From Macrostomum lignano (lineage: Eukaryota), in contig NIVC01003569.1 in assembly GCA_002269645.1 (NCBI GenBank), forward strand, positions 26,822-90,821: DNA of 64,000 bases. The letters are read 5' to 3'. The position numbers and the translations under genes were made by a program. Of this stretch, positions 12,850 through 61,500 are shown piece after piece. Numbering within the stretch: position 1 is the first letter of the stretch; each line of letters starts with the position of its first letter. The notes under the pieces were generated by a model, which was not told the DNA's origin, searched no databases, and saw nothing but the letters and a program-made list of their open reading frames with translations.

Positions 12850-13082
<233 letters not shown>

Positions 13083-23300: not shown

Positions 23301-25145
23301 GGCAAAGAATTTCCAGAGTTCGCTCATCAGCAAAACGAGATGACCATCGAAGCCGGCTGCTTACTCTGGGGGACTCGCGTTATAATCCCGGAGGCCCTGC
23401 GCAAGCCCGTCCTACAGGAACTCCATTTGGCTCACACCGGTGCCAGTCGCATGAAAGCCCTGGCACGCAGTTTTGTTTGGTGGCCAGGGCTGGACAAGGA
23501 CTTGGAGCAGTTGGCTAGAACATGCGAAACCTGCAAGGCTCACCAGTCTGATCCAGCCAAAGCTCCGGTGCATCCTTGGATATTTTCCAGCGAACCTTGG
23601 AGCAGAATTCACTTGGACTTTGCTGGTCCTGTTAATGGGCGAGTCTACCTGGTCATCATGGACGCTCACAGCAAATGACCCGAGGTTCGTCTAGTCAAGG
23701 ATACTTCAGCAGAAACCACCATCGCACATCTCTGTGAAATCTTCAGCCGTCTGGGCCTACCAAGAATTATTGTCTCCGACAACGGGCCTCAGTTCATTTC
23801 CAGGGAATTCGCAAGCTTTACACGCAGCAACGGCATTCGGCATGTCACGTCAGCGCCTTACCATCCTGCTACGAACGGTCAAGCTGAAAGATTTGTACAA
23901 ACACTGAAGCTGCACATCAGGAAATCCGGTCACTCCGCCGCTGCTTTGCAACGCTTTCTCTTCGCCTACAGGGTAACGCCGCATTCGACTACAGGCACCT
24001 CTCCCAGCGAACTGCTTCTGGGACGTCGGCTGCGCTCCAGACTGGACCTTCTGCGGCCATCTCTAGTAGACCAAGTGCGCGATAGGCAAGAGGCTGCCGC
24101 TGAGTCCCAGCGCCGCACCCGGTTCTTCGGGATCGGCGAAAATGTTCGAGTGAAAGGATTCGGCAAGGAATCCGGCTGGCTGCCTGGAGTGGTCGTCGCG
24201 GCGTCGCAACGGAACTACGATGTTCGAGTTGGCACCAGCATCGTCCGGCGGCACGTTGACCAGATGCTGCCTGATTCGGCGCAGCCTCCGCCATCCGCCG
24301 CTGACTCTCAGCACCTCGGCACCAGCATCTCGACTCCATCGTCGGCGCCTCCGGCTCTAGATGTTCTGAGCCCCGCGGCTGTCTCCGAGCCCGCTATCCA
24401 GCCACCATCGGAGGAAAGAGCCGCGGTCCCCGCAGGCCCGGCAGACAAGGCGGCAGCCGCGGACGCGGACGTACCTGACCAGTTGCCAGAGGGTGCGACC
24501 CGCCGATACCCGCCTCGAATTCGGTCATGTCCAGAGCGACTTCAAGTGGGGGTGTGATGGGTGACTGTGCGGGAGCTGACAATGATCTTGAACTGACTTT
24601 TCGCAAATTCTCCTGTCTCTCAGGTAACCCATTATTACGTATGTTTCTCCAATACAAATTATTGATTCACTACTAATTCTAGTTTTCGACAATGCAATAT
24701 TTCGCTATTTTGTTCGACACAATTTTATTTCCTTACTTTTCATCGGCTCAGCAGTTGTGTTTGCTAATTCGATTGTTTTCCAATACTAAAATACTACATG
24801 TACGCTATCGTCGATTCGCTTTTCGTAAAAATTCATCTCATTGATCCCACTTCCCCTTGGGGAGGGAAGTGTGAATTGGCTGTCTTATACCGATTTGAAC
24901 TATACTGCTTTGTGCGCTTGGCTGCTCAATTTTAGCTTACCATTTTAGACCCTCCCCCTCCACTGAACTGATCGATTTCTATTTATGCGTACAGTACTTC
25001 TTCGCAATGTACATCGTTCGTCCTAACTACATGTACTCAGTTCTATAATACAATATAAAGGACCAACGCGTCAGTTTAGAAACGCTGTCTACAACTTGCG
25101 GCTCAAGCCAATTCAATCGCTTCGTCTCAATCTCAATTCATCGCA
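20308..25145 (+). mobile_element. Full-length Ty3/Gypsy LTR retrotransposon, recent insertion
   Basis: 276-bp LTRs at 20308-20583 and 24870-25145 (TG..CA; two differences seen by eye). PBS TGGCGACGAGG at 20585, PPT GGGGAGGGAAG before 24870, 5-bp TSD ACTTC. Confidence 0.97.
20584..24557 (+). pseudogene. Gypsy gag-pol (Gag, zinc knuckles, protease, RT, RNase H, integrase)
   Basis: CHACGKVGHIKKVC knuckle, LDTGSAVS protease, YQDDIL RT, ECDASAYG RNase H, SDNGPQF and HPATNGQAERFV integrase. One apparent 1-nt frameshift near 20955 and an in-frame TGA at 23676-23678 where W is expected. Confidence 0.92.
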
Positions 25146-38632: not shown

Positions 38633-39891
38633 AAAATTAAAATAACCTAAAGCCTGCTCCGGAAAATTTGCAGTTTTCCCATATAAGTTTCGACGCTGAC
38701 TTGCCAGAATTGTAGGAGTTCACTTGCAACATACAGACAGACAGACAGACAGACAGACGGACAGACAAACATCGTCTGTATAAGGAGATGAAAAAAGTAG
38801 AATGCTACACTTTTGCAATAAAAGCCTTATAAAATTCAACAAAGCAATAATGCTTTCAATTTATATCAAAATATATCAACTTCACTGCTTCTTCAACTCA
38901 AATTTAGCTATCTATTTCGCATAAAAAAACATTATATTCTTCTATCATGCTAGTTCCACCAGTGAACGAGCCGAGAGAACCCGAGGCCCCGCCAGGGGCC
39001 GAGGCGAGTGAATAATTTAGGCTAGAAAGTATTTACGAGTAAATAAGTTAGACTCTAATGCATTTTGAAATTTCACGTTTTTTCGCCAAAAAATGCTCCT
39101 GTTTTGCAACCACTGCACGGATTGAGTTGAGTGAGGTGTCGATCGATAGAAAACTTTTAGATCTATCGAATGAATATACTTTTAAGTGCAGAGATTTTAT
39201 TACTAAGCCGTAAATTAAGGGGAAAGACGATTTTTTCAAAAGTGCTTCTAGGAGATCTCAAAATTCTGGTACACCTTACGAGATACGGCTTCGACATCTG
39301 AAGATCAAAGTTGTAAAACTAAATTTCCTACAAAATAGTATATGGCGCTTTAATTTATTTCGACATATTTATTCAGTTTTGGTGAGTTTTTTGGGTAAAA
39401 AAGTCACCCTCATTTTATTATTTTGCCACTTTTTCCTACAAAGGTTTTTGAGTTTGGGCTTCAAAGCAGTGCAGTTAGATGCGCAATGCAAAAATCTACA
39501 AGTGTCTAAAGTTTTGTTTTCCTACGATTCTGCAGTGCTGAGAAAATCGATAAAGATCGATTTTTCAAAAAATCACATGACTTTCGTATTATTGCTCATT
39601 ATAATTTTGAGAACATGGTGCGAATAATCCGATTTCGAATTTCTATAGCATAGTTGCTGTACTATATTGGTTTGGATTTCCGCCGTCTGATTTGGCTGCT
39701 TTCGGGTTGAAAAATCGATCAGAAATCGATAATTTGTGATTTTTGGCTGATTGGGTGCCAGAAAAATGGGTGATTAAATTTTTTAAAGAATGGTAGATCA
39801 AATGCGGATACTGCAACGAGTTGTACTAATGTCTGGCTAAAATCGACCAAGTTTTTGAGTGTCTGCAACAAGTGCTCATGTGTCAAAAGTG

Positions 39892-41232
39892 ACTACTAAG
39901 GACCCATTTATCCGCCCTTTTTGGAGGTGGGGTGGGTGTCAACCCTCCCCGCCTCTCATTGGCTGGCGCTCGGCGCGCGCGCGCCGCAGGCGCGTGGCGC
40001 CAAGCGCCGACCAGCCGCAGGCGCACCCTCCCGATATGTATGCCCACCCTCCCGATATGTACCCCGATATGTACACCATCCCGATATGTATACCCACCCT
40101 CCAGAGCAGCAGGCGCCCATGCCGCAGACGCCCATGCCGCCGGCACCCCGAGTGTACACTCTCCCAAGTCGCAGGCACCCCGAGTGTACACTCTCCCAAG
40201 TCGCAGGCACCCCGAGTGTACACTCTCCCATGTCGCAGGCGCCCCGAGTGTACACTCCCCCATGCCGCAGGCACCCCGAGTGTACACTCTCCCCAGTACA
40301 CTCTCCCGATATGTAGTCAGCGATATTAGGCTAGTGAAAACTACTTATAGTAGGTGAAATTGCGTATATTTGCATAAAAAAGTAGATAAAACATATTGGT
40401 AGGTGTGAATAATGACGCATAATGCATATTAAAATGTACATATTGGAGCATATGAGCAGCAAAAAACACACAATGTAGGTGCATTTTATCGATATTTTGG
40501 CAGAAAAGTAGGTGAAATAGACAAAATAGTAGGTATAATACACAGAACCTACTCATTAGTGTAGTAGGCGCTTGTAGATGCTAGTATAATGCAGGTGCAT
40601 ACATACACACAATGTAGGTGCAAATTGAGTATAATACAGGAAAATTATAATACATAGCATATAATGTAGGCGCATTTTAAACAATACATTTTGCATATTA
40701 ACTCGCAGGTACAAATTTCAGTGCATAGGGTAAAATACACACACTGCAAATTGAGTATAATGCAGGAAAATTGTGACATATACAACATATGTATGCAAAA
40801 TTAAGCTTATAGGTGCAAAGTAAAATATCAGGCTTCCTAGTAAAGAGACACGCCCCAGAGCCAGGGCCGGGGGATCCTAGCGGAGTACAGTTCAGGTAGG
40901 AGCGTTCCTAGTCTGCAACCCATAGCTTCCAAATAGGGTACGAGGGGCCAATGTTTCGAGAGGGGATCCTCAGTACAGTGCGGTCAGAGAGGAGTAACAT
41001 AGAGAAATTCCTCCCCAAGCCCCAAATAAGGTTTTTTCAAGGGGATCCCAAGTACAGTGAGGGCAGAGAGAAATTCCAATTCCTCCCCAAGCCCCAAATA
41101 AGGTTTTTTCAAGGGGATCCCAAGTACAGTGCGCTCCCTGGTGTCAAATGATGAAGGAATCCCGCCCCCCAATGCACAGTGCGCTCCGGGGTGTTAAATG
41201 AGGAAGGATCCCGCTCAATGTACAGTGGAGGT
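39892..41232 (+). repeat. Left terminal inverted repeat of the pPolB element
   Basis: Reverse complement of 47625-48877. Contains five 32-bp units (CCCCGAGTGTACACT core), CCGATATGTA repeats, AT-rich repeats and GGGATCCC..AGTACAGTG repeats. Confidence 0.93.
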
Positions 41233-41368
41233 GCCAAATGAGTAAGGACCCCTAAGTACAGTGCGGGCGTAAAACCATTTTCATCCCCACGAGTCAAGGG
41301 ATCCCAAGTGGGCACATAGGGGAATCCCAGGCAGGGAGGCGTAAAAAAGATAGATCCTTATCTTTCAC

Positions 41369-44300
41369 TCACTCCCGAAAGCCATACGGGCGGCTAGCGG
41401 CCCCATACACCCTCTTAGTCATTACGCGCTGGAAAGTCTTGTCCATCTCGAGGGTCCGGATTGTACAGCTAGCCTTATCGCGCCTGAACTGGGCCTGGGG
41501 CAGGCGTACAGTCCCGCCGTGGCGCAGAATTTCCTGCAGCTCGTCCTCGCGCTCGGAAATCTCGGGGTGACTCTGATGCCCTTGCACTTGAGCACCGAGT
41601 ACAGCGACCCGTCGGGCTTCTCCACTAAGTACCGGTAGAGCTTGGGGCCTCCCGTGGTGAACTGTACCATGCGGCAGCCAGCAGGTACCTCGTCAGTCCA
41701 CTGCCCCAAACTCGAACCACCCGGAGGCTCGTACTCGCCCGGGGAGCAGCGGTATACAACCCTGGGAGGAGGAGGAGAATAAAGTGTTAAGGGGAGAAAG
41801 AGAGACAGATACAGTGAAAAAATTACTTACGAATCGGTATCGGCGTAAATGACTCGGGTTCCTAGGCCCTCCAGAGCCTCGTAGAGTCGCAGCCGGGCGT
41901 GGGAGGTGGTGAAAACGCCAATAGGTACATTAGCGTACTTGAACGCCCGCTCGCCAGCACCGCCAAATCGGGGCTTGTACTCGAGCATCATGAAGCTCTC
42001 CCCAATTGGCTCGCACGACTTGACCTTGATCGAGGGGTCGGTCAGGCGCTGCAGCCACGCCTCGTAGCTGTCCACAATCTCTGTGGAGGTCAGGTCGTCG
42101 CGCTGGCAGAATTTGCCCCAGAGCCTGCAGGGAAAAATAAATTTTTTTTTGTAAGTAGAAAAACACGGCCCCCACTGCAAGTAGAAAAACTTACGAGTTT
42201 AGAAAAATCTTGGCCACAAAGCGCAAGCCAGGATTCTCCTCCACCTTTTCCAGCCGGACGCCTTCGCGCTCGAAAAAGCTGGCCATGTAGGCAGCCTTGG
42301 CGTCCTCAGCCATCCCCGGCGAACCGCTAGACTCGGCTTTGAGCTTCAAAAAAGTGTTTACATAATCTGCAAACAGGCCCGTGCGAGTCTCGGTCCAATA
42401 GGCCAGGGCATGAACTGACTGCAGCTTGTAACCCAACTGCAGGGCTTTGTGGAGCTCTGGGGTTGACCACGTGCCGCGGAGCATTCTCTCAGCGTCAGTG
42501 TGTGTACACTCGCTGCTGCACTGGGTCTCCATGCAGACGCGGCAGAGGCCGAAAACCAGCTTCTTGTTAATCTTGGCGGGCAGTAGCGGGATGTGGAGAT
42601 TGGTTGGCGGCAGAATCGACACCTCGGCGATGCCAAAATACCGGGCCAGCTGCAGCTCATCCAGTAGATGAGGCTCGGGGTGGTGTACCGGGTGCCCGAC
42701 CGGGTACTTGTCAAACTTGTTGACAGTCGGGTAGAGCGACACCTAGGGGATAAGGATAAGATAAACTCAAACGCATGTCAACTGTGTGTGTACAAGTGTA
42801 CAAACTTACCACATCCCGATAGCGCAGCTCTACAGTCTCGGTGGCCTCGGCGTGCGGGACAAAAGCCTCGGTACGGCCGCCAAACAGGGCTTCCTCCAGG
42901 CGAATAGGCTGCTGGACTGGCGCTCCCTCGTCCTGATAGTCGTGCTCCCACAGAACACGCACATTGTAGGCAGTGGAGAGCAGCCGGGTGAAGCGCTCAG
43001 TCTCCTCATAAATCGCCCGCATTGGCTGGTTCTTGAGCGGGTGCAGCACGTCGCCGTTGGGGAAGCACTTGGGACAGCCATGGTAGAAGCAGCCATGAAA
43101 CTGCAGCACTGTCCTGGTCTCTGGGTCGAAGCCGTCGACCTTACGGCCCATGGCGAAAGCCTCGCCGCCAGAATCGGCTGTCCGCAACCGGCCGCCAAAC
43201 TCGGTTGCATTCAAATGCGCAAGCCAGCACCGCGCCTTGTGCGACTGTACATCGGACCGGCGGGAAATCACCCCAAGAGTGTTGGGCTCCATAAACTTGG
43301 TGGTGAAAACAGCCATAGCCAAGCCCGCAATGGTGTTGGATTGAACAAATGCGTCCAGTCCGCAAATGTCCTTAATCAGGCGGGTGTACTTTAGACAGCC
43401 TTCCCGCAAAATTAACGTGTCCTGCAGGCAGTAGTCCAGGTACTCCTTATTGAAATTAAACACCTGTCCCTCCTGCTTGGCCAGCCAGTCGGCGATGGAG
43501 TCATGCTGCTTATTCTTCTTCCCGCCGTACATATCAATTGAGCAGTAGGGTCCCACGTACCCCCAGTTTTCCGGCTGGTTAAACACGTGCGGGAAATCTC
43601 CTTTGGTCAGTTGGGTGCCCAAACCAAGCGCCTTTGGGAATTGCGCCAGACCAATAGGGATGAAATTGAGGCTGTCCTTGAAGGTGATCTTGTCGCACTT
43701 CATGTACATTAGGCGGCTGTTCTGGAAGATCACTTGCGGCTTCTTCTTGGCCAGTCCGTTGAGTAGGGCGCCGAGCAGGAGGAATGCGTCATACGCAGAG
43801 CCATTGTGCGCAATAGCAATTGCCCCCTGCTTGAACACACTAGTCAGCCAGCAGTAAAATGCATCGATAGAGTGCGGCCCGACAGATACAAACTCTCGCA
43901 TCCCACAGGCACAGTCATTGTGCGAGACACAGCTCGTAAAATCCAGCGCCAGATTGCGTCCCGCAATGCAATTGGCTGAGCTGTGTAGTCCCCCGCACAC
44001 GCTGCAGCGGGGCCTGGGGAAGAGTTTGGGACACGCCTCGCAGGAGGTGGCAGCCGTAACCAAGTGTACCCGGTGCTGCTTGCCAGAGTCCAAGTACGTC
44101 TCGAAATCATAGTAAACATACGGGGCGCTAGACTCTTTGGCTTTTGGCGGGGTGACAAAGCACTCGTGGGTGGCAGTTTCGTCGTACTGCTTGCAGACTG
44201 GGCACTTGGCATAACCACACTGATGCTCAGGGGGCTGGCCTACTTTTAGTTCTTCTAGATAGCCACACGTGCCGCAAACGTGGACCGAATCACAGCGCGA

Positions 44301-46520
44301 TCTGCCGGCCTTATTCTTGCGTTTGTGATTTTCTAGGCACTGAGCATTATAGCAATTTAGCCCGCAATCATGGCATCTTACATATGCGCGGTTTGCCTTA
44401 CAGTTGGAGCCCGGAGTCTTGCATGTACTGCAGGCATCCGCACACTTGTGCTTGGCGTTGGCGCAGTCGTAGGCCATCTCGCACTTGGGGCAGTAGCGCA
44501 CGGAGCCGAAAAACGCAGGCAGCTTGGTAACCACATTAAAGTGCTGCTCGACCAGGTGCAGGTGCAGAATCTCGGTGCCAGGCAGGTTGAAGATGCACCT
44601 GTTGGCCTCCTCTGCGCGGTACACGCGTACACCAAAATCGTGCCCCGGATGCAGCCGGTTCAGGGCACGGATCGCTTCGGGCAGTGCATCCACCCCGAAA
44701 GGACCAGCCTGCGAGACGGTTTGAAGAGTCTGTGTGGAGGGTAAAATATTTCTTTTAGTGTTCCTTATCGTAAAATTTCTTATCAGAGTATGGTTCTTTT
44801 AGTATTCCCTGATACTGTGTAAAAAATCTTATCAAAAAATATATCTTTTAGTACTCCATGATACTGTGTAAAAATTCTTTTAGTATTCCCTGATACTGCG
44901 TAAAAATTCTTTTAGTATTCCCTGATACTGCGTAAAAATTCTTTTAGTATTCCCTGATACTGCGTAAAAATTCTTTTAGTATTCCCTGATACTGCGTAAA
45001 AATTCTTATCAGAAAAATACTAGAAACTTACCGAGTAGAGACCCGCTTCGATTTGTAGCTCAGCCACCAGCTTAGTCTGCTTGGGCGAATTGACCTTGAT
45101 TGTGCGCCACACCTTCTCGGTGATGGACTTGGCCACGAATTGCAGGTAGGCGCAGGCCACGACCAGAGCGCGCAGCAGGCATCTCTTGTCCGAGTTGGTG
45201 ATGCGGACATAGTGCTTTGAAAAAGCGTGCCTCTCTTCTAGATGCTTGTTCTCGAGAGCACATCCACCTCGAGGCACCCAGGCCTTTAGCAACCGGATAG
45301 AAAAGTTGCCCGTCAGGACAGTGGCATCCGACTGTACAATCTTGTTGATGTGCTTAAACAACAATTCAGCCGTCATGCGGGATGCACGCACCGGGGGAGT
45401 ATGGGCCGCTTTGAGCATATTGTCGCTCTCGAATTTCGCGGCCATAAAGTCATCACCAGCCAAATCTTGCTTGAAAACTTCGAGCATGTCGGCAAACACC
45501 TCCCGCAAATCTTCGGTGTTGGTAATACGCACCACATACTCGACACCCTTTGCCCTAAACTTGGGCAGGTCACGCTGATTATCCAGCCGGGCCGTAAAAC
45601 CTGCATGGGGGGAATGGGGGAGTGTGAGTCAGCCCGGGTCTGTGTGGGAAATGGGGGGCGGGATAACTCACCCGGTCCGGTAACAGATTCCGGCTGTGTT
45701 GGCGGGACAAACGCGTCTGAAAAAACACAAGGAGATAAAAAAACCAGAAGAATCTGTCATTTTCCTGGCCCCAGCGTGTTTCCCCGCCCTAGCCCCAGTA
45801 ATTTCTTAACAGAGTTTACTCTGCTGTCCCCGCAGCAACTCTCTGCAATTTCTTATCTGCACCCCCGCTGCAGCCTGTCGCAGCAGTCTTTGTTTACTCA
45901 CCCCTGCAACTCTCTGTCGCAGCAATTTGCACCTAGCTGCAGCCTGTCTGGGTAGCGCCCTATCTGCAGCCCCAGTCTGTCCCAGCAACTCTCTGCCCCC
46001 ACCCGGCTGTAACTTGTCTAGCCCGCCCCAACGATTCTGCAGCAATTTCTTATCTGCCGCAGCACCCTAGCAACTGTCTGTTTTTGCAGCAATTTCTTAT
46101 CAGCACACCCCTCCCTGTCTAGACAACACCCCACCCCAGTCTTTGTTTACTCACCCCTGCAACTCTCTGTCGCAGCAATTTGCACCCCAGCTGCAGCCTG
46201 TCTGGACAACACCCCCCTAGCAGCAATTTCTTATCAGCACACACCCGGCTGAAACTTGTCTAGCCCTCCCCTGCAACTCTCTGTTACAGACCCTGCCGCA
46301 GCACCCCACCCTAGCAACTCCAGTCTAGACCCCTGCAGCTGTCGCAGCAGTCTTTGTTGTTTACTCTGCGGTCCCACAGACCCTGCAGCTGCTGCTGCTG
46401 CTCAGCCCCTACCCCCACCCTAGCAACTACAGTCTAGACAGAAATTAATTAAAACTTACCATAAAGACGTTGCCTCTTGTCAGCCAGGAAAGCAGTTGCG
46501 GTGGCGCTGCGTTTAGCCAT
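41369..46520 (-). CDS. Protein-primed family B DNA polymerase (Polinton/adintovirus type), six exons, ~1260 aa, one apparent 1-nt frameshift near the C-terminus
   Basis: Exons 46460-46520, 45032-45600, 42810-44729, 42195-42742, 41831-42124 and 41369-41761, joined by GTAAG..AG introns in matching phases. Motifs: Exo YYDFET, HNGSAYD, DSLNF, YCLQDT; Pol A YRDV|VSLYP, Pol B KIFLNS|LWGKF, Pol C YADTDS|VVY, then GPKLY and KCKGI. Exon total is 3785 nt, one short of a multiple of 3; the frame changes near 41565. Confidence 0.93.
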
Positions 46521-46764
46521 TTTGCAAACAGAGAGTGTGAGAGAGCGAGCGGAGAGAAGGATTATCTCTCTACCCTGGCTCTGGGGGTCTGTATATATAC
46601 TAAAAAATCTGCTCAGCTCGCCTGTTATTGGATAAATCGCCAAAAACCAACCAAAATCATCAAAAATCACCCCCAAAATCACCACCCACCCCACCCTCCA
46701 TCCGGGGGTATATAAGGCGCTGCACGGCTGTCAGAGAGCTCTCTGCTGCTGCTGCTGCTAAATC
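46521..46764. promoter_or_regulatory. Putative compact bidirectional promoter between pPolB and the PC4-like gene
   Basis: 244-bp gap between divergent ATGs, with TATA-like GTATATATAC (46591-46600) and GGTATATAAGG (~46708-46718). Confidence 0.5.
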
Positions 46765-47262
46765 ATGTCTTCTATCTCTCTATACGAAAACTTTGTGGCG
46801 CGGAAGCCCACATTTGAAACTGAACACAACTTGATTGAAATTCGGCGTCTCTACACCAACGAGGCTGGAGTGTGGAAGGACGGCTTCCCTGCAATCTACT
46901 TGAGCGAGCCAGAGTGGAAGAAGCTCGAAGCTGCGCGCCCTGACCTGGAGGCTGCTGCCCGCCTTCACGTGAACAAGCGGGTCCTGTTGGGCAATTTCAA
47001 GGCAGTTGAAGCTTCGCGAGGGAGGATCCGTTTGCTGCGCAATTGGCTCAATCAGGACCCAAAGTTTAATTGGCGCTACACGATCGAATTCACGCCTGAA
47101 CTGTGGCGCCGGATGTTTGCCGCCCGTTTGGACAAGCTCTTCAAGCTGGCACCCGAGGTCCCACCGTCTGCCAAGCGAGCCAAGACAGAGGACAATCTGC
47201 AGGACTGCCTTGACAGCATCAAACCCTACCCTTGGGGAAATCTGTTTGACGAGGGTTGCTAA
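46765..47262 (+). CDS. Tandem PC4-like ssDNA-binding protein (165 aa; the C-terminus may be incomplete)
   Basis: LIEIRRLY..EAGVWKDGFPAIYLSEPEWKKL and RIRLLRNWL...RYTIEFTPELWRRM each resemble the PC4 pattern vDIR.y...G...g.kGIsLt.eqW..L. PSAKRAK is NLS-like. Assignment is from visual pattern match only. Confidence 0.65.
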   Translation: MSSISLYENFVARKPTFETEHNLIEIRRLYTNEAGVWKDGFPAIYLSEPEWKKLEAARPDLEAAARLHVNKRVLLGNFKAVEASRGRIRLLRNWLNQDPKFNWRYTIEFTPELWRRMFAARLDKLFKLAPEVPPSAKRAKTEDNLQDCLDSIKPYPWGNLFDEGC

Positions 47263-47624
47263 TTGAGGCGTGCCGCATCCGTACAGCGCGAACCCGATTT
47301 TTGGTAAGCTTAATTTCATATAAATCGTATATAAATTACATATAATCTGTCTACATTGAATATTTTTTACTTTGACAGATGTTTCGAGAGCGCTGATGAG
47401 GAGGAGACTGCCCTGGCTGAAGATCGAGCTCGAGTTTGACTGATAAGGGAATTTCTCTTTGTACTCTATTACTCTCTGCCTGCACTGTACTTGGGCCTCG
47501 CAACACACTGGGGGATCCCTCAACTTGGAGAGCTACCCTCTGGGGATCCACTAAAACCCTCATTTGGGGTGGGAGCTGCGGTAAAGTTTGACTGGAATTC
47601 TCTTTGTATGCGGTCTGTTACTCT

Positions 47625-48877
47625 ACCTCCACTGTACATTGGGGCGGGATCCTTCCTCATTTAACACCCCGGAGCGCACTGTGCATTGGGGGGCGGGATT
47701 CCTTCATCATTTGACACCAGGGAGCGCACTGTACTTGGGATCCCCTTGAAAAAACCTTATTTGGGACTTGGGGAGAAATTTCTCTATGTTACTCCTCTCT
47801 GACCGCACTGTACTGAGGATCCCCTCTCGAAACATTGGCCCCTCGTACCCTATTTGGAAGCTATGGGTTGCAGACTAGGAACGCTCCTACCTGAACTGTA
47901 CTTGGGATCCCCCGGCCCTGGGAGGAATTTCTCTATGTTACTCCGCCCGCACTGTACATTGGGATCCCCCGGCCCTGACTCTGGGGGCGTGTCTCTTTAC
48001 TAGGAAGCCTGATATTTTACTTTGCACCTACATTATATGCTTAATTTTGCATACATATGTTGTATTATACTCAATTTGCAGTGTGTGTATTTTATCCTAT
48101 GCACTGAAATTTGTACCTGCGGGTTATTATGCAAAAATGTATCGTTTAAAATGCGCCTACATTATATGCTATGTAATTTTCTTGTATTATACTCAATTTG
48201 CACCTACATTGTGTGTATGTATGCACCTGCATTATACTAGCATCTACAAGCGCCTACTACACTAATGAGTAGGTTCTGTGTATTATACCTACTATTTTGT
48301 CTATTTCACCTACTTTTCTGCCAAAATATCGATAAAATGCACCTACATTGTGTGTTTTTTGCTGCTCATATGCTCCAATATGTACATTTTAATATGCATT
48401 ATGCGTCATTATTCACACCTACCAATATGTTTTATCTACTTTTTTATGCAAATATACGCAATTTCACCTACTATAAGTAGTTTTCACTAGCCTAATATCG
48501 CTGACTACATATCGGGAGAGTGTACTGGGGAGAGTGTACACTCGGGGTGCCTGCGACTTGGGAGAGTGTACACTCGGGGTGCCTGCGACTTGGGAGAGTG
48601 TACACTCGGGGTGCCGGCGGCATGGGCGTCTGCGGCATGGGCGCCTGCTGCTCTGGAGGGTGGGTATACATATCGGGAGGGTGTACATATCGGGGTACAT
48701 ATCGGGGTACATATCGGGAGGGTGGTCATACATATCGGGAGGGTGCGCCTGCGGCTGGTCGGCGCTTGGCGCCACGCGCCTGCGGCGCGCGCGCGCCGAG
48801 CGCCAGCCAATGAGAGGCGGGGAGGGTTGACACCCACCCCACCTCCAAAAAGGGCGGATAAATGGGTCCTTAGTAGT
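47625..48877 (-). repeat. Right terminal inverted repeat of the pPolB element
   Basis: Reverse complement of 39892-41232, with three rather than five 32-bp units. Confidence 0.93.
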
Positions 48878-51689
48878 AAAGTGATTGGAAATCGATCAGA
48901 GTAGTGATTTTTTAATATTTTGCTTGAAATCAGGCAAAAAACGCAATAGGACGGCAATATTTTAATGACGTCTGATTTCCCACATAACGAGGCACATTTG
49001 TGTCCAATTTCTAGAGATTCGGTTCATTGGGTAAAAAATTATCGATAAAAAACTGAAAACTTGACTTTTTACTTTTATGTTAGTTCCGGGGCTATTTAAA
49101 CTGGAAATGGTAGGAATTTTGCACTGAAATCAATGCACAGTGTTCCATATAGTTAATTTAACAAATTTCTTGAATTTCATAACCATTCGATGTTTTTTTC
49201 ATGTAAAAAATGCCTTTTTTGCATCGAAATTCATCACATTAAGCTGCATACCGCTTTGCATAATCTGCATTTGCATGCGATTGCTTGCATAGCTTTGGCG
49301 TTAGGCTAAGTTAAGCTGGTTAGAAAGGAAAGGAAAGGAAAGGAAAGGAAGGAATATTCGTACATACAATGTACACACCCGTCCCTTCCAAGTGGGGTTG
49401 TGGCAACGCGAGAGGGCTTGGCGGCTTGGTTTGGAGGGCGTGTAATAGAGCTTCATTTGACTCGCGCACAGACCAAGGCAAATTAGATCGATAAACGGGC
49501 GTCACGTGATTTGACGCCTGATTTGCCTGATTTCAAGCAAAATATTAAAAAATCACTACTCTGATCGATTTCCAATCACTTTTGACACATGAGCACTTGT
49601 TGCAGACACTCAAAAACTTGGTCGATTTTAGCCAGACATTAGTACAACTCGTTGCAGTATCCGCATTTGATCTACCATTCTTTAAAAAATTTAATCACCC
49701 ATTTTTCTGGCACCCAATCAGCCAAAAATCACAAATTATCGATTTCTGATCGATTTTTCAACCCGAAAGCAGCCAAATCAGACGGCGGAAATCCAAACCA
49801 ATATAGTACAGCAACTATGCTATAGAAATTCGAAATCGGATTATTCGCACCATGTTCTCAAAATTATAATGAGCAATAATACGAAAGTCATGTGATTTTT
49901 TGAAAAATCGATCTTTATCGATTTTCTCAGCACTGCAGAATCGTAGGAAAACAAAACTTTAGACACTTGTAGATTTTTGCATTGCGCATCTAACTGCACT
50001 GCTTTGAAGCCCAAACTCAAAAACCTTTGTAGGAAAAAGTGGCAAAATAATAAAATGAGGGTGACTTTTTTACCCAAAAAACTCACCAAAACTGAATAAA
50101 TATGTCGAAATAAATTAAAGCGCCATATACTATTTTGTAGGAAATTTAGTTTTACAACTTTGATCTTCAGATGTCGAAGCCGTATCTCGTAAGGTGTACC
50201 AGAATTTTGAGATCTCCTAGAAGCACTTTTGAAAAAATCGTCTTTCCCCTTAATTTACGGCTTAGTAATAAAATCTCTGCACTTAAAAGTATATTCATTC
50301 GATAGATCTAAAAGTTTTCTATCGATCGATACCTCACTCAACTCAATCCGTGCAGTGGTTGCAAAACAGGAGCATTTTTTGGCGAAAAAACGTGAAATTT
50401 CAAAATGCATTAGAGTCTAACTTATTTACTCGTAAATACTTTCTAGCCTTCGGCGGCGCCGGGCTCGGCTCGTTCACTGGTGGAACTAGGTTTATTAAGT
50501 AGTATGAAGACCCACGTCTAAAAAGAAGCCCGTTCACTGGTGGCAAAAAGACGTGTGCGTCTTCATACTACTTGTGTATTTACGCAAAAATTTGGCCTCC
50601 AGCCCAATTTCCACAAAAGCCAAATGTAATGTCCTTCTACTCTAGTTGTCCATGAATAAATGTTGGCAATGTCCTAGTTTCCCGCGTTAAATTAGGATCT
50701 GTATAAAAGCAGGGCACCATTGGCACATTGGACACCCCTTATGTTAACAAAAATCGAGTTTTGATCGTTGTTTTGCTTGAATAAATATACTTTGGCTTTC
50801 GAATGAAAATGTAAATATTTATTTATAATTGCACTTTTTCATATACTTCTAACAACCATGAGATTGGTAGTGTAGCGACTTTGAAATGAAAAAGGTAGAG
50901 CTAGGCGGTGGTTCGCCCTTGCTTGCTTCTTTGTTTGGCACTTGAGTTGCTCGAATATCAAAGAGGCTTGGAGCAGATGCTGGTTTAGCTACTGTATATT
51001 TATACTATAATTTGTCCTTCCGGAAATTTCTAGAATCATTCTAGTGCGGTAAAACAAACTGTATAGTAAGTATCGTACGCACGGTATTCATATTTTGTAT
51101 GATGATGAATTACAGTAAATGAATATTTATTGAGTAGAAATATTTACTACGAGATTAGAAATAGATAGATAAAGAATTTTCAAGAATTTAACTCGTACTG
51201 TATAGCAGAAATTTCTGGAAGTAAACATCATACGTTATAGAACTTTCGCGAAGGTCACTACAACAGTCCCCCGCGGAAGATGGAGTCCCTATGAGTCAGT
51301 TGATCGCGGATGAGTATGTACAAGATGAAACGCACTGCATGTAGGTCTGCGGATGAAAATTGTACAATGAGAAAGCGTCAGCTGTTAGTGGGTAAAGAGT
51401 TAGTCAAAAGTAGAAATAGTCATTTTTAGGTTTAAACAAGCTGTTGAAACCCGCGGATTTTGAACCCGGGGAATTCCAATCCCCGGAACTACTTTTGCAT
51501 GTATTCTGAAATCTAAGGCCATACACAAACAAAAACTTGTTAATAGTTAGTAGGATAGAGGTAGACATAAAATGGAGCACATTCGTGTAAAATTAGGATT
51601 TGAGGCAAACATTGATATTGTTGTCTGGGGTACTGCGCAGAATGTCAGGCAATGTCTGTCTGACTCTAAAACATGTATGGGCAAACTCT

Positions 51690-53496: not shown

Positions 53497-54349
53497 ATTG
53501 CCATCCACTGTTAAACTGCTGCAGAGTTTGCCAATACAGAGAGGAGGGCAGTGGTTAGAATTTCTCACTAAACTGTTATGGCTAAACGTAGCCTCTCCAC
53601 TCTTGGGGTGCGAGAAGGCTATAAAAAAGTTATTCCAAAACACTGTACATTTGCTATGTACATTCAGTCCTATCGCCTGACCCTTCGTCTGGCTCTGGGG
53701 GAATGAGTGAGTGAGTGGCACAAACAACAGAAAAAGCAGACAAACTTCACATGCTTACAGTTTCTTTTTCGGTTGAGTTACAGAGTTGAAACTTTACATT
53801 TAGATAGAGAATGAGTCAATGAAGAATTGTGTCAAGTTGGGAGTCAATCGCTTTACGTGGAGCAAACTTATAGCAGCTGAAAGTTAGCCAATTTTGAAAC
53901 CCTTTTACACATCTGGGCCCAGATCGGGATCGGGAAAGAGAGGCAGGCGGGCGGAGGTTGGGGTGGTTGCTACGCTGAAAAAAACAGCCTAACTTTAAAA
54001 GTGCACAGCACCGCTCAGGATTGACTTTGAGACTCGAAATTTTACAAAATTGTGCCAAAATAGTTAAAGATTATCTGTGTCAAATTTGAAGAGAATCGGT
54101 AGAAGTGGAGCGGCGCTATGGAGGATTAAGTGAAAAAATCGCGCATTTTGAGCAGTTTTTTGTACTTTTAGGTAGGAAGACTCAAATTTAGGAAATTAAA
54201 AGGTAGCCTAAGACATTCTCCGTAGTAAGTTTAGGGTGGGTGTAAAGTTTGGTGTAATTTGGTTGAGCGGTTTGGGAGTCCATAGCGATCAAAATTGTCC
54301 ACACACAGACAGACAGACAGACAGAGTTTTGATTTTTATAGGTAGAGAT
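53497..54349 (+). mobile_element. Interspersed ~850-bp repeat, DINE-1/HINE-like, copy 2
   Basis: Homologous to 37783-38632; ends (ACAG)n-GAGTTTTGATTTTTATAGGTAGAGAT. Confidence 0.65.
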
Positions 54350-54350
54350 T

Positions 54351-57300
54351 GCACTCTACGGCCGCTCCTGGTACGTACTGGTGATGGTGGTGGTTGCTGC
54401 TGATGAATCGCGGTTCGCGTCCTGGTTCGCTCCGGCTCTGTCTGCTGCGAACCTGCCTCCGTCGGTGCTGTCGTGCTACGGTCGCTAATGTCGTCTTCCC
54501 TGGTGCCCGACTGAGATGTTGATTCCTGTGGCACCGTCGACTCGCTGTTGGGAGGGTCGGCTGTCGGAGATGCTCGTCGTCTGTCAGGTGCAGACTGCGG
54601 TGTTGATCGACAAGGCTTCAGGCGGTCGATGGAGTCTCCTGACGTCTCCTGACTCCTGACGTCCTGCGGCTGTTTCGATGATGAAAAACTTCGGCAGTCG
54701 CTTCACTACCGGGTAGGGACCTTGGTACGGTGCTTCCAAAGGCTTCATTGTTCGGTCGACTCGGACCCAAACCTTCTCGGCTGTCTCGAGGTCGCTCGGG
54801 ATGTGCTTAGGCCGATCTGGTGGAGGTCTCGTGTCGTCAAGCAGGTTATCCAGGCGCAGTCGAATCATCTCGGGTGTTGGATCCTCGGCTGTCGTCAGGA
54901 CGCGCGGCATCATCGGGTGTTCTCCGGTCAGACGAGTGAATGGGCTTATGCCGTCGTCGTTTGGTGAGATGCGCATCGCAAGTAGCGCTAGAGGAAGATT
55001 CTCCAGCCAGGAGTTCCGCGAGCCTTTAGAATGGCTTTCAGGGTGCGGTGGGCCCGCTCCACTTTCCCGTTCGTCTGCGGGTGATACGCTGTTGTGCGCA
55101 GTCGGTGAAATCCGATGTCCTTAGCGACTCGGTTGAAAAACTCGGCTTCGAACTGCGGTCCTCGGTCGGTGACGATGTACAGCGGAACTCCAAAACGCGA
55201 AATCCGGGTAGATATGAATGCTGAGGCTACACTCTCTGCGGTGACGGATTCCAGCGGCGTGGCCTCGATCCAGCTGGTGCTACGGTCGACCATCGTGAGT
55301 AGGTAACGAGGAGTGAGACCGCAGGAGATGTCGTACTTCCGGTCGGGTACAGGCAGCGGACCGACGATGTCGATGTGCACAACTTCGAGTCGTTTCGATG
55401 GTAGGTCGAACGCAGAACTGCCGGCTGTCGTGTGGCGCCCAATCTTAGTTCGTTGGCAGGTTGCGCACGCTCGACAGAACTGTTTGATGGCATCTCGCAT
55501 GTTCGGCCAGAAGTATCGGGTTGTTAGCAGGCTGGCGGTCTTGCGGACGCCGTAGTGGCCAAGCTGGTGGAACTGCCGAATGAGCGGCTGTTGTAGCGAA
55601 TCTGGGACGACTGGACGAGGATAGTGACTGGAGGTATCGCACAACAATGTCTGCTTTCCGTCGAACTCATAGAATCGGCAGTTGTTGCTTGGTTGCATCC
55701 CGATTCGTTTCTGCTCTGCGGCAATGGCTGGCAAGTCGACGGGTTCCTCTAGGGATGTCTCCTCTGCGGCTGCAACCGTTTGCGTCGGCGAACCTCCGGA
55801 CTCGGATAACCTTGATAGGGCGTCGGCGACTATATTGTCAGAGCCGCGGATATAGACCACATCGGTGACGTATTCGGATATGATGCTCAGATAACGCTGG
55901 TTCCTGTCGGAGGTACCCTGGCTGCCGCTGTGGAAGGCCTGAACAAGGGGCTTGTGATCCGTAAAGATCGTGACCTGACGGCCCTCGATAAGGCTCCGGA
56001 AGTGAAGAACTGCCAGGTAGACTGCTAGGAGTTCTCGATCGAAAGCAGAGTAGGCTCGCTGCGTCGGCAAAAGGGTCTTGCTGAACAGCCCGAGCGGGAC
56101 TGGCGACTGACCGTCGGCTTGGTGTAGAGCGGCTCCCACGCAGGTTGCCGAGGCATCGGTGACCAGGCTGTAGGACGAACACTGCGGGTCGGGATGGTGA
56201 AGCAATTGATACGATCGGCTAGCTTACCCTTCAGCTGATTGAACGCGTCCTCGTGCTGCGATGTCCACTCGTACGTGCGCGGCGCCTTGAGTGACTTGGT
56301 GACCAGGTCTTGCAGCGGTGCAGCGGTGTGGCTGAAATGCGGGATGAAGCGGCGGTAGAACCCGATTGTGCCGAGGAACCTGCGCAGGGCCTGTGCGTTG
56401 CGAGGTGCCGGCCACTCACGGATGGCGTCAACCTTGGATTCGAGCGGCCGGATCCCGTCTGCTGTTACCTGGTGTCCAAGAAACGTGATTTCCTTCTGCA
56501 TGAAAGCACACTTGGTGAGCTGGACCTTCAAACCGTGTTGTTCAAGGCGTCGGAGTACGCTTTCGAGCACTCGGAGGTGGTCTTCCTCGTCCTTGGAGTA
56601 GACTAGCAAGTCGTCCACGTAGGCGAGCACGCCGTCGATGCCACGGAGCACAGTGTCAATGAATCGCTGAAACGTTTGACCTGCATTACGAAGACCAAAT
56701 GGCATGCGGATCCACTCGTAAAGACCGAACGGTGTGATGATTGCTGTCTTCGGTATGTCCTCTTCGGCGATTGGAATTTGATGATAGGCTCGCACCAGAT
56801 CCAGCTTGGAGAAAACCTTGGCACCGTGGAGATACCGTGTGAAACACTGGATATGAGGCACGGGATAATGATCCGGCTGGGTGATCTTGTTTAGCTGTCG
56901 ATAGTCTCCGCAGGGTCGCCACTTACCATTGGGTTTGCCGTCGTCCTTCTTAGGAGCCATGTGCAGCGGTGATGCCCAAGAGCTCGACGACGGCCGGAGG
57001 TACCCGGCTTCCAAGAGTTGCCGAAACTCTTCTCGGGCGATGGCGAGCTTCTCCGGATGCAGCTGTCGGGCTTTGGCGTGCGTCGGTGGTCTATCGCTCG
57101 TGATGATGTGGTGCTTCGTGTCATGTTTAACTTCGGTGGCCGGAGGTAGCCTCCCTCCTTCGACGCACGTGAAGGTGCTGCGGTAACGATCGATGAGTGC
57201 GCGTACACGAGGATCGCAGTGGTCTGGATACGCCAGCGACACGGCGAGTTCATCGAGGTCCACTGCGGTAACCGGCAGAGATGGCGTATGTAGTCTCGTT

Positions 57301-57653
57301 GTAGGGTCAACTAGTCGACGCCCCTTGCAGTCGACGATCAATTCGAAATGACTGAGGAAGTCGTACCCCAGGATAGGTTGTACGACGGATGCGACCAGGA
57401 ACGTCCAGCGGAATTCACGACGGAGTCCTCGGATGTTGACGTCGAGCGAGATCTCTCCAGCGACCGGTATCGATGCACCGGTGGCGGTGGTCAGGCGAAA
57501 TCCGGTCTCCTGAAGGTCCCGGTGGAATTGCTTCTGCGGAATTATCGACACTGCTGCGCCGGTATCGACCAGGAACGGGTAGTACTTGCTGTCTATCTTG
57601 ATATCCACCACCAGGAATTTCTTGCTCGCCGCCGGGGATGATGCACTGCTCAC
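54351..57653 (-). pseudogene. Gypsy pol (protease, RT, RNase H, integrase), frameshifted
   Basis: [54 protein letters not shown] and the tail VRTRSGRRV. Frame breaks near 56205, 55020 and 54600. Confidence 0.92.
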
Positions 57654-57676
57654 TGCGGCAAGTTGGGCAGTGCCCT

Positions 57677-58576
57677 CTAGTTTGACGGCTGACGTGTCGG
57701 AGAGGCTGACCTGGACTGTGCAGGTGTCTTTTCGTGAGTACTCAGAATTCGCGGCCGCCTACCACCCAAGGCGGACGGGAAACGACACCACGGTCGGCAG
57801 GTAAGCGCGCGTTCACCGTAGTAGATGTGGGCCCGGCAGACGACCGGACGCTGTCCTGGCTTGAACGGGGTGACGCTTGTCTGTGGCTGCAGTTGTCGGC
57901 GTGGCAGTTCGTCCCGTCTGGAGTTGATGGTCGGCGGTGGCGTCGGCTGTACAGCGCTGACTGAGCTCGCCGAGCTCTGGTAGCTGACCATGAAATCAGC
58001 GATTTCAGCGAGCTTCTCTGGCGATTCCTGCTGGAAGCCTGATAGTGCGACTCGTAGCTCACTGGGCAGGCAGCGGATGAGAGTCGCCTTGAGCATGTCG
58101 GAGCAGGAGCCCATGCCGCACTGAGCCATCTTGGCGCTGAGCTTCTTGACGAAGATTGAAGGCTTGTCGCCACCTAGATCGGACGTGGCCAGGATCTCGT
58201 TGATCTTCTCCTGCTGACTCTTCTGCAGAAGGTTGGAGATGGCGGCTTCAAGCGGCTCGTACTGTCGAGGCGTTGATGTCGTGATCAGCATCGACGAGAT
58301 ATCCTCCGGCAGGTGCGCAACCAAGTAGTGGTACTTGGTCTCGTCCGAAGTTATGCGCGCTAGGTGGAATTGCGACTCTAGGGTCCGGAACCAAGCTTCC
58401 GAATTGTTCCGGTACAGCGGCGGAACCTTAACGGACACGGCGGACACGCTTGGCTCAAGTATCGGTGGTGTATGTTGAACAGGTAGCTGCCCAGTGGGGT
58501 TGAGCACCGGGGCCTGGTTGTTGTCGGCGGCTGCTGCGGCCTGCTGCGATAGCTGCGGATCGCTTTCGTCGGCCAT
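57677..58576 (-). CDS. Gypsy Gag (299 aa)
   Basis: Intact ORF just after the PBS, with VKVPPLY..NSEAWF..LESQF..ARIT..ETKY and a C-terminal C..H..YG..A..C..C motif. Confidence 0.88.
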
Positions 58577-61500
58577 GACGACTCACCGGACCAGTTCTAT
58601 AACGTATGATGAAGTAAACATCATACGTTATAGAACTTTCGCAAAGGTCACTACAGTAGTATCAACAAGTTTTATTCTACATTTAAATTCATTTCTTATC
58701 TTGCTTTATTGTCGAACTACTTTCGGTACGTCATTTTCATTTACCTAGTTGGTGCACTTACAGAAAACATAGAAACATTAAATGCCGTTTCTTGTCCTCA
58801 ATAAACGTTGGAAAAAGTGAGCAGCAGACTAGTTGCAGAATTTTATAGCCGGACATGGCATATTTGACAATTTGCAGCTGCTCTGGCTTGTTTACTGCCT
58901 TTTCATAAATCAACAGCAATGGTGAAAGTGAATCTAATCCTTCTCTCTCTCTCTCTCTCTTCTCTCTCCCATAATGTTAATGTTTGATTTGTTGTTAATA
59001 TGGACTTTTAAAATCCCCCGTGTCTTAAATAAAAAAACGAATAATTTTTTAAGTTATGATTTCCATCAAAATGCAATTAATTAATGTTTTAAAAACATTT
59101 AAACTCAATAAATTATTTATTCTCTTATCAAATAGAATCCAACTCTAGAATATTTTTCAAGGAAGGAATACTAACTATCCTTAATATTCAATATGCATGA
59201 TAATAAAGCAGTGCATTACTTTTTCAATTTAGAGAATCTAACAAGGAAATAAATATAATTTAGTACAGTACCATTGTAAGCAAAAAACCATAAGCTTACA
59301 GGTACAATTTTTTGTAAAGATAGATACAGCGGAAAATTAAAATTTGACAAAAGAATACCACAAACACTAAAAATGGGGAGAAAAAGTATAACAAACATTG
59401 GCATTAATAAAAAAGTAATAAATATTGCAGTTGAGCAAATGAAATTAGCAATTAAACAATGCAATGAGTTAAATGATAAATAACAAAGAAATGCTAAATA
59501 ACATCTAGCAATGTATATTAAAGCAATTGAAGTGCACTCTGAGTTGAAAGGCTTACAACTCATAAAGTACAGTTTAAATGCAATGTAACTTTTTATTTAT
59601 TTGTAACTTTATAACAATAGAAATCATTACCATAAGCAATTGTATGAAAAGTTGCTATTAATAGTCTTATGTACTTTATCTCTACTCTAAGAGCTAACTT
59701 TCTATAAATATATATGATTCCTTGTATAAAATTAGGGATTCTTTAAAAAATTCATGCTGCAATATGCATATATCACACTCTTGACCCAAGAAAATTATTG
59801 AAAGTGGTCAACCAATTAGCACAAAAAAATTATAGACAGGGCTGTAATGGTGCAAGTGGTGTTTCGGCACACCACTTAAATTTAAATTTAAATTTTTGGA
59901 GCAGTTACACTAAAGAAAATTATTATTTTATAAAATTAAGAGAGGCTAATAAAATTAGTAGGGCTTGAATTGAATAATATGCTGTGAAGACTCAAACTTG
60001 TAAGCCAAGAAGGCTAGAATTAGGGTTAGCAATTAGGCAATTAGGCAAACTATAGACATTAAGGAATGTGTAGGTATTAAATAAATAAATCATGCAGGTG
60101 CTAATAGTAGCTTAAAACCTATCACTTGGTCCCTTAGAATGCCATAATTCTGGACATTAGAATTAAAAAATAGTGTTTTACTGATTGGAAACTTGTTCTT
60201 ATTGGAAAACTTCTCATAAATATAGAAATATTACTATAAACAATACTAATAAATTTGCCTATTAAAACTTTGTGGCATTTGTAGGATTTTAGAAGAAGGA
60301 AGTATACCCTGCAACATATGTGCAGAATATTTATGTGCTAAAGGATTTTGTCTGAAATAAATGACAATAATTGTTATGTGAAGATGGTTTATATGTTGTT
60401 TATTCAAAGCATCACATACAACTTTTCAGTAAAAAGACTTCTTGGTCTGTAAGGTAGATTTTTTACTTATATGCTTGCATTTTTTAACTCATAATTTAAA
60501 TGATTAGCACAATTTCTTAAATATCAAGACTTGGCAAATTATTCATAATAATAAAGGTTTTCTTAAAAGGATTGTATATAAAGAAGAGACTGTAATTTGA
60601 ACTTTCACTGAGTAGCTATTCCTTTTTTGTTGGTTGAAATCATACAAAAAGTAATTAAACTAATAAAAGAAGAAGCTTGGAAATTATTAATTTAATCATC
60701 ATCTTACAAAGTAAAAAAAACTTTTTGGGTGCAATTTTTTCATCAAATAATCTGCCAATGTATTAACTTTTTTAATATAGAAATACTTGCTTGCAAATTT
60801 GAAATATCCAAAGTTCGTTCTTCATGAAGTAATCCTAACAAAATAAGTTGTGGTTTTTTTATAAAAGCAGAATGCTTCATCATTTTATGGAAAATTGAGT
60901 TCTGACTATTAGTTTGATCATTTCATATATCAGGCATATTTAGCATTAAATCGGTACGCCTGTAGTACAGAACCTTCGGGTAGTAAAATCACAGTGTAAT
61001 AGCATTGCAAGCTGCAGTTTTTGCATGTGCGATTATTTTAAAAAATCGAATGCCAAATTCAGGACATGTACAAAAAACGATAATACAAAGAATATTTAAC
61101 AAATCATCTATCACGAAAGCAAGGATGTCATTTCTATTATTATCAATTTTTTAAAATTATTTAAAAGTAACTCCGCAGGTTTATTCTGCATTTTCATAAC
61201 TAATTTTGTTATAAAAAAGGGTGTCCAATGTATCCAATGTGCCAGCTTTTATACACACCCGTTAAATGGGTTAAATTAAATTATTTTGACATAAAATTTG
61301 AAACAAACAAACAAAAGCAAGTTTATTAAAGATTTAAAATGAGTCTTAGGTCTTAAAGGGAGTATTACACCACATTGTAATATGTCAACCAGTACAGAAA
61401 GTTGCTAAAGCTCTCTTTTTGGATAGAGTTAGTGCCAGAAAAACTCGCCGAGGTGGAAACCCGTCAAAAGGGTGATTCTCATCGAGAGGTTTCGGAGGTT

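What the first reader, a model, noticed from the sequence alone, without database searches (positions are those of the whole stretch)
41369..46520. Viral-type pPolB gene with five spliceosomal introns, three of them inside the polymerase catalytic motifs A, B and C
Seen in sequence: introns of 859, 302, 67, 70 and 69 bp, all GTAAG...AG, with phases that restore one frame. The three small introns split YRDV|VSLYP, NS|LWGKF and DTDS|VVY. Retention of the motif B or C intron gives an immediate in-frame TAA. Established: Polinton and adenovirus polymerase coding regions are generally intron-free or intron-poor. Inference: the element has lived long in the nucleus and gained host-style introns, which makes polymerase production depend on splicing and offers a possible control point, for example germline-restricted activity.
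Basis: partly seen in the sequence, partly recalled or inferred. Interest (0 to 1): 0.75.

Follow-up and report, generated by a model that had tools for sequence, protein, structure and literature searches.

The report
Minimal Polinton satellite with spliced polymerase
A 9-kb virus-derived jumping element, present in dozens of copies in this flatworm genome, keeps only an intron-split DNA polymerase gene and a small DNA-binding gene; it likely copies itself and likely borrows the integration enzyme of complete relatives, a stripped-down form that screens for intron-free, capsid-bearing elements would miss.

Summary
All six junctions appear in RNA-like contigs (each in at least 2 of 3 runs from three studies) and none in a DNA-like run. 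Three split motifs A, B and C. They are shared with a second family whose synonymous sites are saturated (dS about 2.3), and dN/dS is about 0.1. The gene lies in an 8,986-bp element (39892-48877) with ACTACT...AGTAGT ends, about 1.3-kb TIRs, a 6-bp TSD and only pPolB2 plus a PC4-like gene. No integrase, capsid, ATPase or protease was found inside any of 53 such loci, many of which are gene-less fold-back palindromes. Complete, intronless AGTAGT-ended Polintons co-reside in the genome. The host is very likely Macrostomum lignano. Best reading: a self-synthesising Polinton satellite integrated in trans. A splicing switch is unsupported. The window copy has a frame break in its last exon. This scan has noted intron-split pPolBs in other genomes, so introns alone recur; the minimal architecture is the more distinctive part.

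The parts
39886..39891 (.). Left copy of 6-bp target-site duplication AAAGTG
   Evidence: Sequence
39892..41214 (+). Left terminal inverted repeat, begins ACTACT (inner edge approximate)
   Evidence: Inverted arms; shared boundary of copies
41369..41761 (-). pPolB exon 7 (after motif C); frame break near 41563 in this copy
41762..41830 (-). Intron 6, 69 bp, phase 2, in motif C (DTDS|VVY)
   Evidence: junction in X1 and X4
41831..42124 (-). pPolB exon 6
42125..42194 (-). Intron 5, 70 bp, phase 2, in motif B (NS|LWGK)
   Evidence: junction in X1, X2, X4
42195..42742 (-). pPolB exon 5 (PF03175)
42743..42809 (-). Intron 4, 67 bp, phase 0, in motif A (YRDV|VSLYP)
   Evidence: junction in X1 and X2
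42810..44729 (-). pPolB exon 4: OTU His, Cys-rich region, Exo I-III, VSR-type insert (PF03175)
44730..45031 (-). Intron 3, 302 bp, phase 0, between the predicted OTU Cys and His; holds a 32-bp tandem repeat
   Evidence: junction in X1, X2, X4 with two variant letters at the edge
45032..45600 (-). pPolB exon 3: predicted terminal-protein domain (little-finger/PAD-like fold) and OTU Cys
45601..45671 (-).
   Evidence: junction in X1, X2, X4
45717..46459 (-). Intron 1, 743 bp, phase 1
   Evidence: junction in X1, X2, X4
46460..46520 (-). pPolB exon 1 with ATG
46521..46764 (.). Divergent intergenic region with two TATA-like boxes (about 46593 and 46710)
   Evidence: Sequence; promoter function inferred
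46765..47262 (+). orf2, 165 aa, PC4-like predicted ssDNA-binding protein
47644..48877 (-). Right terminal inverted repeat, ends AGTAGT (inner edge approximate)
48878..48883 (.). Right copy of target-site duplication AAAGTG
   Evidence: Sequence

Best explanation
This is a multi-copy, 9-kb, integrase-less and capsid-less Polinton derivative whose six-intron polymerase gene is spliced by the host; it likely replicates itself as linear DNA by protein priming and is likely inserted by the integrase of complete Polintons living in the same genome. Shown: ends, TSDs, gene content, splicing, intact catalytic residues, purifying selection, co-resident complete Polintons. Inferred: after excision, the terminal-protein domain primes at the ACT-repeat ends, the OTU domain would release it, pPolB copies by strand displacement with the PC4-like protein coating the displaced strand, and the TIRs pair into a panhandle that homogenises the two ends. 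Template switching would yield the gene-less fold-back copies. The introns were gained once, before families A and B split, are probably constitutive, and are kept because the element is transcribed in the nucleus. In motifs A, B and C only a precise loss would be viable, which would favour their survival there.
For: All six junctions in RNA-like contigs, 0 of 6 in the DNA-like run. 6-bp TSD in the window, in 8 of 10 family A copies and 7 of 8 family B copies. 145 ORFs from complete Polintons and relatives hit only pPolB, PC4 or dUTPase inside 53 ACTAC-type loci (65 of the queries hit the control loci). dN/dS 0.07-0.16 within A, 0.10-0.13 within B, about 0.13 between. TP-like fold; OTU Cys/His, Exo I-III and VSR residues intact. 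Left and right TIRs are 92-100% alike within 7 of 9 copies but 71-91% between subfamilies. Fold-back palindromes with TSDs. Complete Polintons with AGTAGT ends, integrase (115 matches) and capsid (73 matches) are present.
Against: The helper is not identified. No TIR similarity to the complete Polintons held was found, and their ends read AGTAGT, not ACTACT, so end recognition in trans is assumed. Free linear DNA or terminal-protein linkage was not observed. Only the first 100 of 141 and of 151 TIR-motif matches were listed. The structural match for the TP domain is moderate (Z 5.4-6.5). Runs are only guessed to be RNA and are contigs. Strong purifying selection among copies of a trans-acting enzyme needs some lineage-level selection that I did not show.
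Confidence: 0.62

Rival explanations
1. The 9-kb elements are deletion derivatives of an unassembled or now lost autonomous ACTAC-ended Polinton that supplied its own integrase.
For: Nearest metagenomic relatives sit beside integrase, ATPase and capsid-like genes. Some family B copies keep PC4, an unknown ORF and dUTPase. The end motif differs from all complete Polintons whose ends I could read. The assembly is fragmented.
Against: Both families, split at saturated dS, lack integrase in every locus examined. Of 38 family A TIR pairs, 25 span 7.5-9.2 kb, 10 are under 4 kb, and the 3 larger ones hold no integrase. Three larger family B pairs hold unrelated insertions or nothing.
Confidence: 0.2
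2. Splicing of one intron is regulated by tissue, as in the Drosophila P element (recalled), and limits polymerase to the germ line.
For: Retention of introns 1, 3, 5 or 6 stops translation within three codons. Intron 1 is the weakest junction in X2 and X4 (depth 13 and 16), while intron-1 contigs reach 27 and 39. This is a weak hint, since contig depth cannot rank parts.
Against: Stops on retention are expected of any AT-rich intron. All junctions occur in at least two studies. The motif introns are crossed by single contigs. No tissue labels were available.
Confidence: 0.12
3. The motif A, B and C introns mark targeted insertion, by homing-type elements or introners that later became spliceosomal, or they shield conserved sites from rival nucleases.
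For: One intron in each of the three motifs (P 1.6e-4 to 6e-3, post hoc). Inteins of family B polymerases occupy these motifs (recalled). Unchecked notes report motif-splitting introns in other genomes.
Against: The introns share no clear sequence, within or between families (21 pairs against shuffles; best 0 of 200 for one pair of pyrimidine-rich introns). They are 60-120 bp and carry no ORF. Three other introns lie outside these motifs.
Confidence: 0.15
4. The gene is domesticated by the host or is a decayed fossil.
For: It is transcribed and spliced like a host gene; the window copy has a frame break.
Against: 138 matches in the genome, distinct TSDs at each site, near-identical TIRs, and a near-identical copy (C173) at another site.
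Confidence: 0.03

Closest known systems
Polintons/Mavericks (animal adintovirus-type) with pPolB2 carrying a VSR insert
   Same: PF03175 polymerase with TP, OTU, Exo and VSR-type parts; long TIRs; 6-bp TSD; trinucleotide-repeat ends; PC4-like and (in some family B copies) dUTPase genes related to those of co-resident Polintons.
   Different: No integrase, capsid, ATPase or protease; 9 kb rather than 13-25 kb; 5'-ACTACT rather than AGTAGT; six spliced introns, whereas vertebrate Maverick genes (PMC8097293, passages) and nematode Maverick core genes (bioRxiv 2022.07.12.499685, passages) are described as intronless.
Cytoplasmic linear plasmids (pGKL-type) and transpovirons
   Same: Capsid-less Polinton-derived linear replicons with TP-vOTU polymerase or derivative (bioRxiv 2024.03.18.585575, passages).
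   Different: This one is nuclear, spliced, chromosomally integrated with TSDs, and in an animal.
Polintons/PLVs lacking a core gene
   Same: Insect polintons without polB stay mobile (bioRxiv 2025.02.07.637071, passages); integrase-less PLVs are found integrated, possibly in trans (PMC11296320, passages).
   Different: Those keep capsid genes; this keeps only the replication module.
Introner-invaded Polinton-like viruses of dinoflagellates
   Same: Spliceosomal introns inside Polinton-like elements (bioRxiv 2025.03.18.643946, first third read).
   Different: There the introns are repeated transposon families, mostly inserted after integration; here they are unrelated to each other, old and inherited by all copies.

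Membership tests
Polinton/Maverick | Protein-primed family B polymerase | tested here: met
   PF03175 over cut-off in exons 4 and 5; motifs intact
Polinton/Maverick | Retroviral-like integrase encoded by the element | tested here: not met
   No ORF in the element; no hit inside 53 loci
Polinton/Maverick | Capsid, ATPase and protease genes | tested here: not met
   capsid matches lie in other elements
Polinton/Maverick | Long TIRs | tested here: met
   About 0.7-1.4 kb in family A
Polinton/Maverick | 6-bp TSD | tested here: met
   Window, 8 of 10 A copies, 7 of 8 B copies
Polinton/Maverick | Short-repeat end motif (AGT)2 or (AG)3 | tested here: inconclusive
   Repeat present but (ACT)2 or ACTACG; an (AC)3A variant is published for swamp eel
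pPolB2, VSR subgroup | VSR nuclease insert | tested here: met
   FHGCFYHG motif aligned with relatives; two relatives are named VSR endonuclease by their source. No tree was built.
pPolB with TP-vOTU | Little-finger/PAD-like TP domain and OTU Cys/His | tested here: met
   Model pLDDT 89; Y-family little-finger matches Z 5.4-6.5, moderate; Cys in 41 of 41 rows, His in 13 of 13
Linear plasmid | Free linear DNA with covalent terminal protein | not testable with these tools
   Only integrated copies were seen
PC4 (PF02229) | PC4 ssDNA-binding fold | tested here: met
   Window protein alone misses Pfam; its 42% family B homolog passes the cut-off; profile hits PC4 at E 7e-9; Foldseek top hits PC4, E 4e-3
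Introner | Repeated, mutually similar introns | tested here: not met

The most novel reading that the evidence does not exclude
Animals harbour a hidden class of nuclear, integrating linear-plasmid-like satellites of Polintons: two-gene replicons that make their own terminal protein and polymerase, hijack helper integrases, spawn copy-back defective genomes, and have converged on spliceosomal introns inside polymerase motifs A, B and C, as inteins did, to pass as host genes and escape silencing of intronless foreign DNA.
Probability: 0.3. Interest if true: 0.82.

Novelty: new variant of a known kind. Interest (0 to 1): 0.64.

Why it matters
Polinton core genes are described as intronless, and surveys require several core ORFs close together (five proteins within 20 kb in bioRxiv 2023.08.22.554363), so elements like this are invisible to them. 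It shows an animal Polinton lineage reduced to a replication module that stayed mobile over a long time, a nuclear counterpart of linear plasmids. Because it is expressed, multi-copy and in a tractable flatworm, it offers observable tests of the untested Polinton replication model (panhandle end repair, copy-back products), of integrase sharing, and of why introns settle in catalytic motifs.

Tried and rejected
A second 'segment' with capsid or integrase and the same ends: TIR-bounded loci without pPolB were mostly gene-less palindromes or held unrelated insertions. The capsid-bearing elements share no TIR sequence with this family. The 874-bp arms at 39019-50449 are not the element's TIRs but the target it inserted into. 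PF04665 found no match in the genome although ATPase-like ORFs are visible, so that blank is uninformative. A pattern for the motif C intron in viral contigs gave 5 matches, none pPolB. Protosplice (MAG|G) context was not seen at the six sites. Fold search of exon 3 against viral models gave nothing at E <= 0.001; the top row was an adintovirus protein. No listed run was on record as RNA. The joint that skips the whole element was not used, since the target is itself a repeat. The earlier-findings look-ups by place and by sequence were empty. Literature: searches found no description of this element or of inherited spliceosomal introns in an animal pPolB. Repbase, subscription papers and supplements were not seen and may hold it.
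Full report
Observation. On the minus strand the polymerase gene has seven exons: 46520-46460, 45716-45672, 45600-45032, 44729-42810, 42742-42195, 42124-41831 and 41761-41369. The introns are 743, 71, 302, 67, 70 and 69 bp, phases 1, 1, 0, 0, 2, 2, all GT...AG. The last three split YRDV|VSLYP, NS|LWGKF and DTDS|VVY as stated. Exons 4 and 5 pass PF03175. The window copy has a frame break near 41563: its last exon closes at 112 codons, against 130 in 10 of 10 family A copies and 129 in 7 of 7 mapped family B copies.

Splicing. I laid 4 of 24 listed runs on the element. X1, X2 and X4, guessed to be RNA and from three studies, show joints at the exact intron edges: introns 1, 2, 3 and 5 in 3 of 3 runs, intron 4 in X1 and X2, intron 6 in X1 and X4. 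X18, which covers introns and TIRs evenly, shows 0 of 6. The intron 3 joint carries two variant letters at its edge. X1 and X4 also cover the TIRs, so they hold DNA or precursor as well. The data are contigs without tissue labels, and 29 joints were not shown.

The element. Copies share a boundary at 39892-48877: 8,986 bp, ends ACTACT...AGTAGT, TIRs of about 1.3 kb, TSD AAAGTG. It holds pPolB and one divergent 165-aa gene. That gene is PC4-like: a family B homolog passes PF02229, a profile hits PC4 structures at E 7e-9, and the model's best structural matches are PC4, though only at E 4e-3. An exon 4 fragment has 138 matches in the genome (132 of 158 candidates scored), falling into family A (95-100%) and family B (about 66%). 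TIR motifs occur 141 times for A and 151 times for B. Six-bp TSDs were found in 8 of 10 A copies (one truncated, one with unlike ends) and 7 of 8 B copies. The top database hits, 83-98% identical, are Macrostomum lignano proteins, so the host is very likely that flatworm.

Age and selection. In 10 A copies, 57 of 60 intron slots could be mapped, and 56 read GT...AG with freely varying lengths. In 8 B copies, 30 of 32 slots for introns 3-6 mapped at the same sites, all GT...AG. Intron 2 and the mini-exon were found in 5 of 6 B copies, and an intron 1 donor in one copy examined. Over 36 A pairs mean dS is 0.117 and dN 0.012; B pairs give dN/dS 0.10-0.13; A against B gives dS 2.2-2.4 and dN 0.30. 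The introns therefore predate an old split, and the polymerase is under purifying selection. Exon 3 folds (pLDDT 89) like the little-finger domain of Y-family polymerases (Z 5.4-6.5, moderate), the fold reported for Polinton terminal proteins (bioRxiv 2024.03.18.585575, passages). OTU Cys and His, Exo I-III and the VSR motif are intact.

What is missing. I searched 145 ORFs from this genome's complete Polintons and from relatives against 54 loci, 53 ACTAC-type plus C234. Inside the elements only pPolB, PC4 and dUTPase were hit. Other hits lay in flanks, in a nested retroelement, or in a complete Polinton inserted in C271. Among 38 family A TIR-motif pairs read from the first 100 listed matches, 25 span 7.5-9.2 kb, 10 under 4 kb, and 3 more; those 3 hold no integrase. 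Many TIR-bounded loci are gene-less palindromes with TSDs. Left and right TIRs agree at 92-100% within 7 of 9 copies but 71-91% between subfamilies, as expected if each end is copied from the other through a panhandle (inference). The genome also holds complete Polintons with AGTAGT...ACTACT ends, 115 integrase matches (114 of 2318 candidates scored) and 73 capsid matches. Their polymerases are uninterrupted and barely similar to this one. No TIR similarity links them to this element; the end motifs differ only by G/C at positions 2 and 5.

Relatives. The nearest non-flatworm proteins are 30-37% identical. In 104 viral and metagenomic loci, motif A was contiguous in 75, B in 58, C in 59, all three in 49, and in one open frame in 39. 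In 21 loci checked for a missing motif, truncation or frameshift, or a single continuous alignment was seen, not an intron-sized gap. Several have integrase, ATPase or capsid-like neighbours. The introns and the gene loss are thus derived.

Mechanism. Shown: structure, splicing, selection, mobility footprints, absence of integrase in the loci examined. Inferred: protein-primed self-replication, PC4 as the single-strand binder, copy-back derivatives, and integration by a helper integrase (0.62). Rivals are an unseen autonomous master (0.2), targeted intron insertion (0.15, concerning intron placement only) and a tissue-specific splicing switch (0.12). For the switch there is only a weak hint at intron 1, not at the motif introns. 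Three of six introns in motifs is unlikely by chance (post-hoc P 1.6e-4 to 6e-3), but the introns share no clear sequence, so an introner origin is not supported. Survival bias, or benefit against silencing of intronless DNA (shown for human HUSH, PMC8770142, abstract; untested in flatworms), are the plain candidates.

Known work. Vertebrate Mavericks are reported intronless with (AGT)2 or (AG)3 ends and 6-bp TSDs (PMC8097293, passages). Nematode core genes are intronless while cargo has introns (passages). Dinoflagellate elements carry introners (first third). Polintons without polB and PLVs without integrase are reported (passages). Passages of PMC8502044, PMC12220804, PMC12801592 and PMC6431247 added nothing. 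Nine searches found no account of this element; Repbase and supplements were not seen. Unchecked notes of this scan describe intron-split pPolBs in other genomes, several with motif-splitting introns, and one capsid-less, integrase-less PLV derivative. These notes lowered my view of the introns as unique and are not counted as evidence.

Verdict. The feature is real, spliced and old. It works like a Polinton replication module but fails Polinton membership on integrase and capsid. It is a new variant of a known kind; interest 0.64.

Noticed in passing
window 1-6726: Telomeric (TAACCC)n array, so the window begins at a chromosome end.
   Followed up: no
window 39019-50449: The element sits inside another repeat with 874-bp perfect inverted arms and a small inner inverted repeat (48878-49575), itself flanked by a further short inverted pair at about 38949 and 50490.
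   Followed up: partly
window 47304-47378: Candidate 75-bp GTAAG...ACAG intron just downstream of the orf2 stop, conserved in five copies; a public gene model uses the exon behind it. Not among the listed joints.
   Followed up: partly
L133, L134, L135, L136, L275, L277, L284, L285: Gene-less elements of 4-10 kb that are almost entirely one inverted repeat, many with 6-bp TSDs: copy-back-like derivatives of both families.
   Followed up: yes
L126:5694-8833, L137: Family B variant with PC4, an unknown low-complexity ORF and a dUTPase 43-50% identical to that of a co-resident complete Polinton family.
   Followed up: partly
L033/L034 (C41), L049/L050 (C135): Copies whose left and right TIRs come from different subfamilies yet have a matching TSD, suggesting recombination before insertion.
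   Followed up: partly
L047/L048 (C271): A family A copy interrupted by what looks like a complete Polinton of another family.
   Followed up: partly
L119:5047-9774 (C126): Family B ends around two long ORFs, one with a CIDE-N domain: possible cargo or nested insertion.
   Followed up: no
L068 (C234): AT-rich, degraded pPolB2 (35-45% identity) without the motif A intron and apparently without the others, about 16 kb from a capsid-like ORF: an intronless relative in the same genome.
   Followed up: partly
L079-L097, L099-L118, L139-L149: At least four families of complete Polintons with uninterrupted polymerase frames of up to 1478 codons; I found no paper on them.
   Followed up: partly
window 9273-18598, 20904-24557, 54289-58582: Ankyrin gene, P4-type ATPase gene and two Ty3/gypsy-type retroelements.
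   Followed up: no
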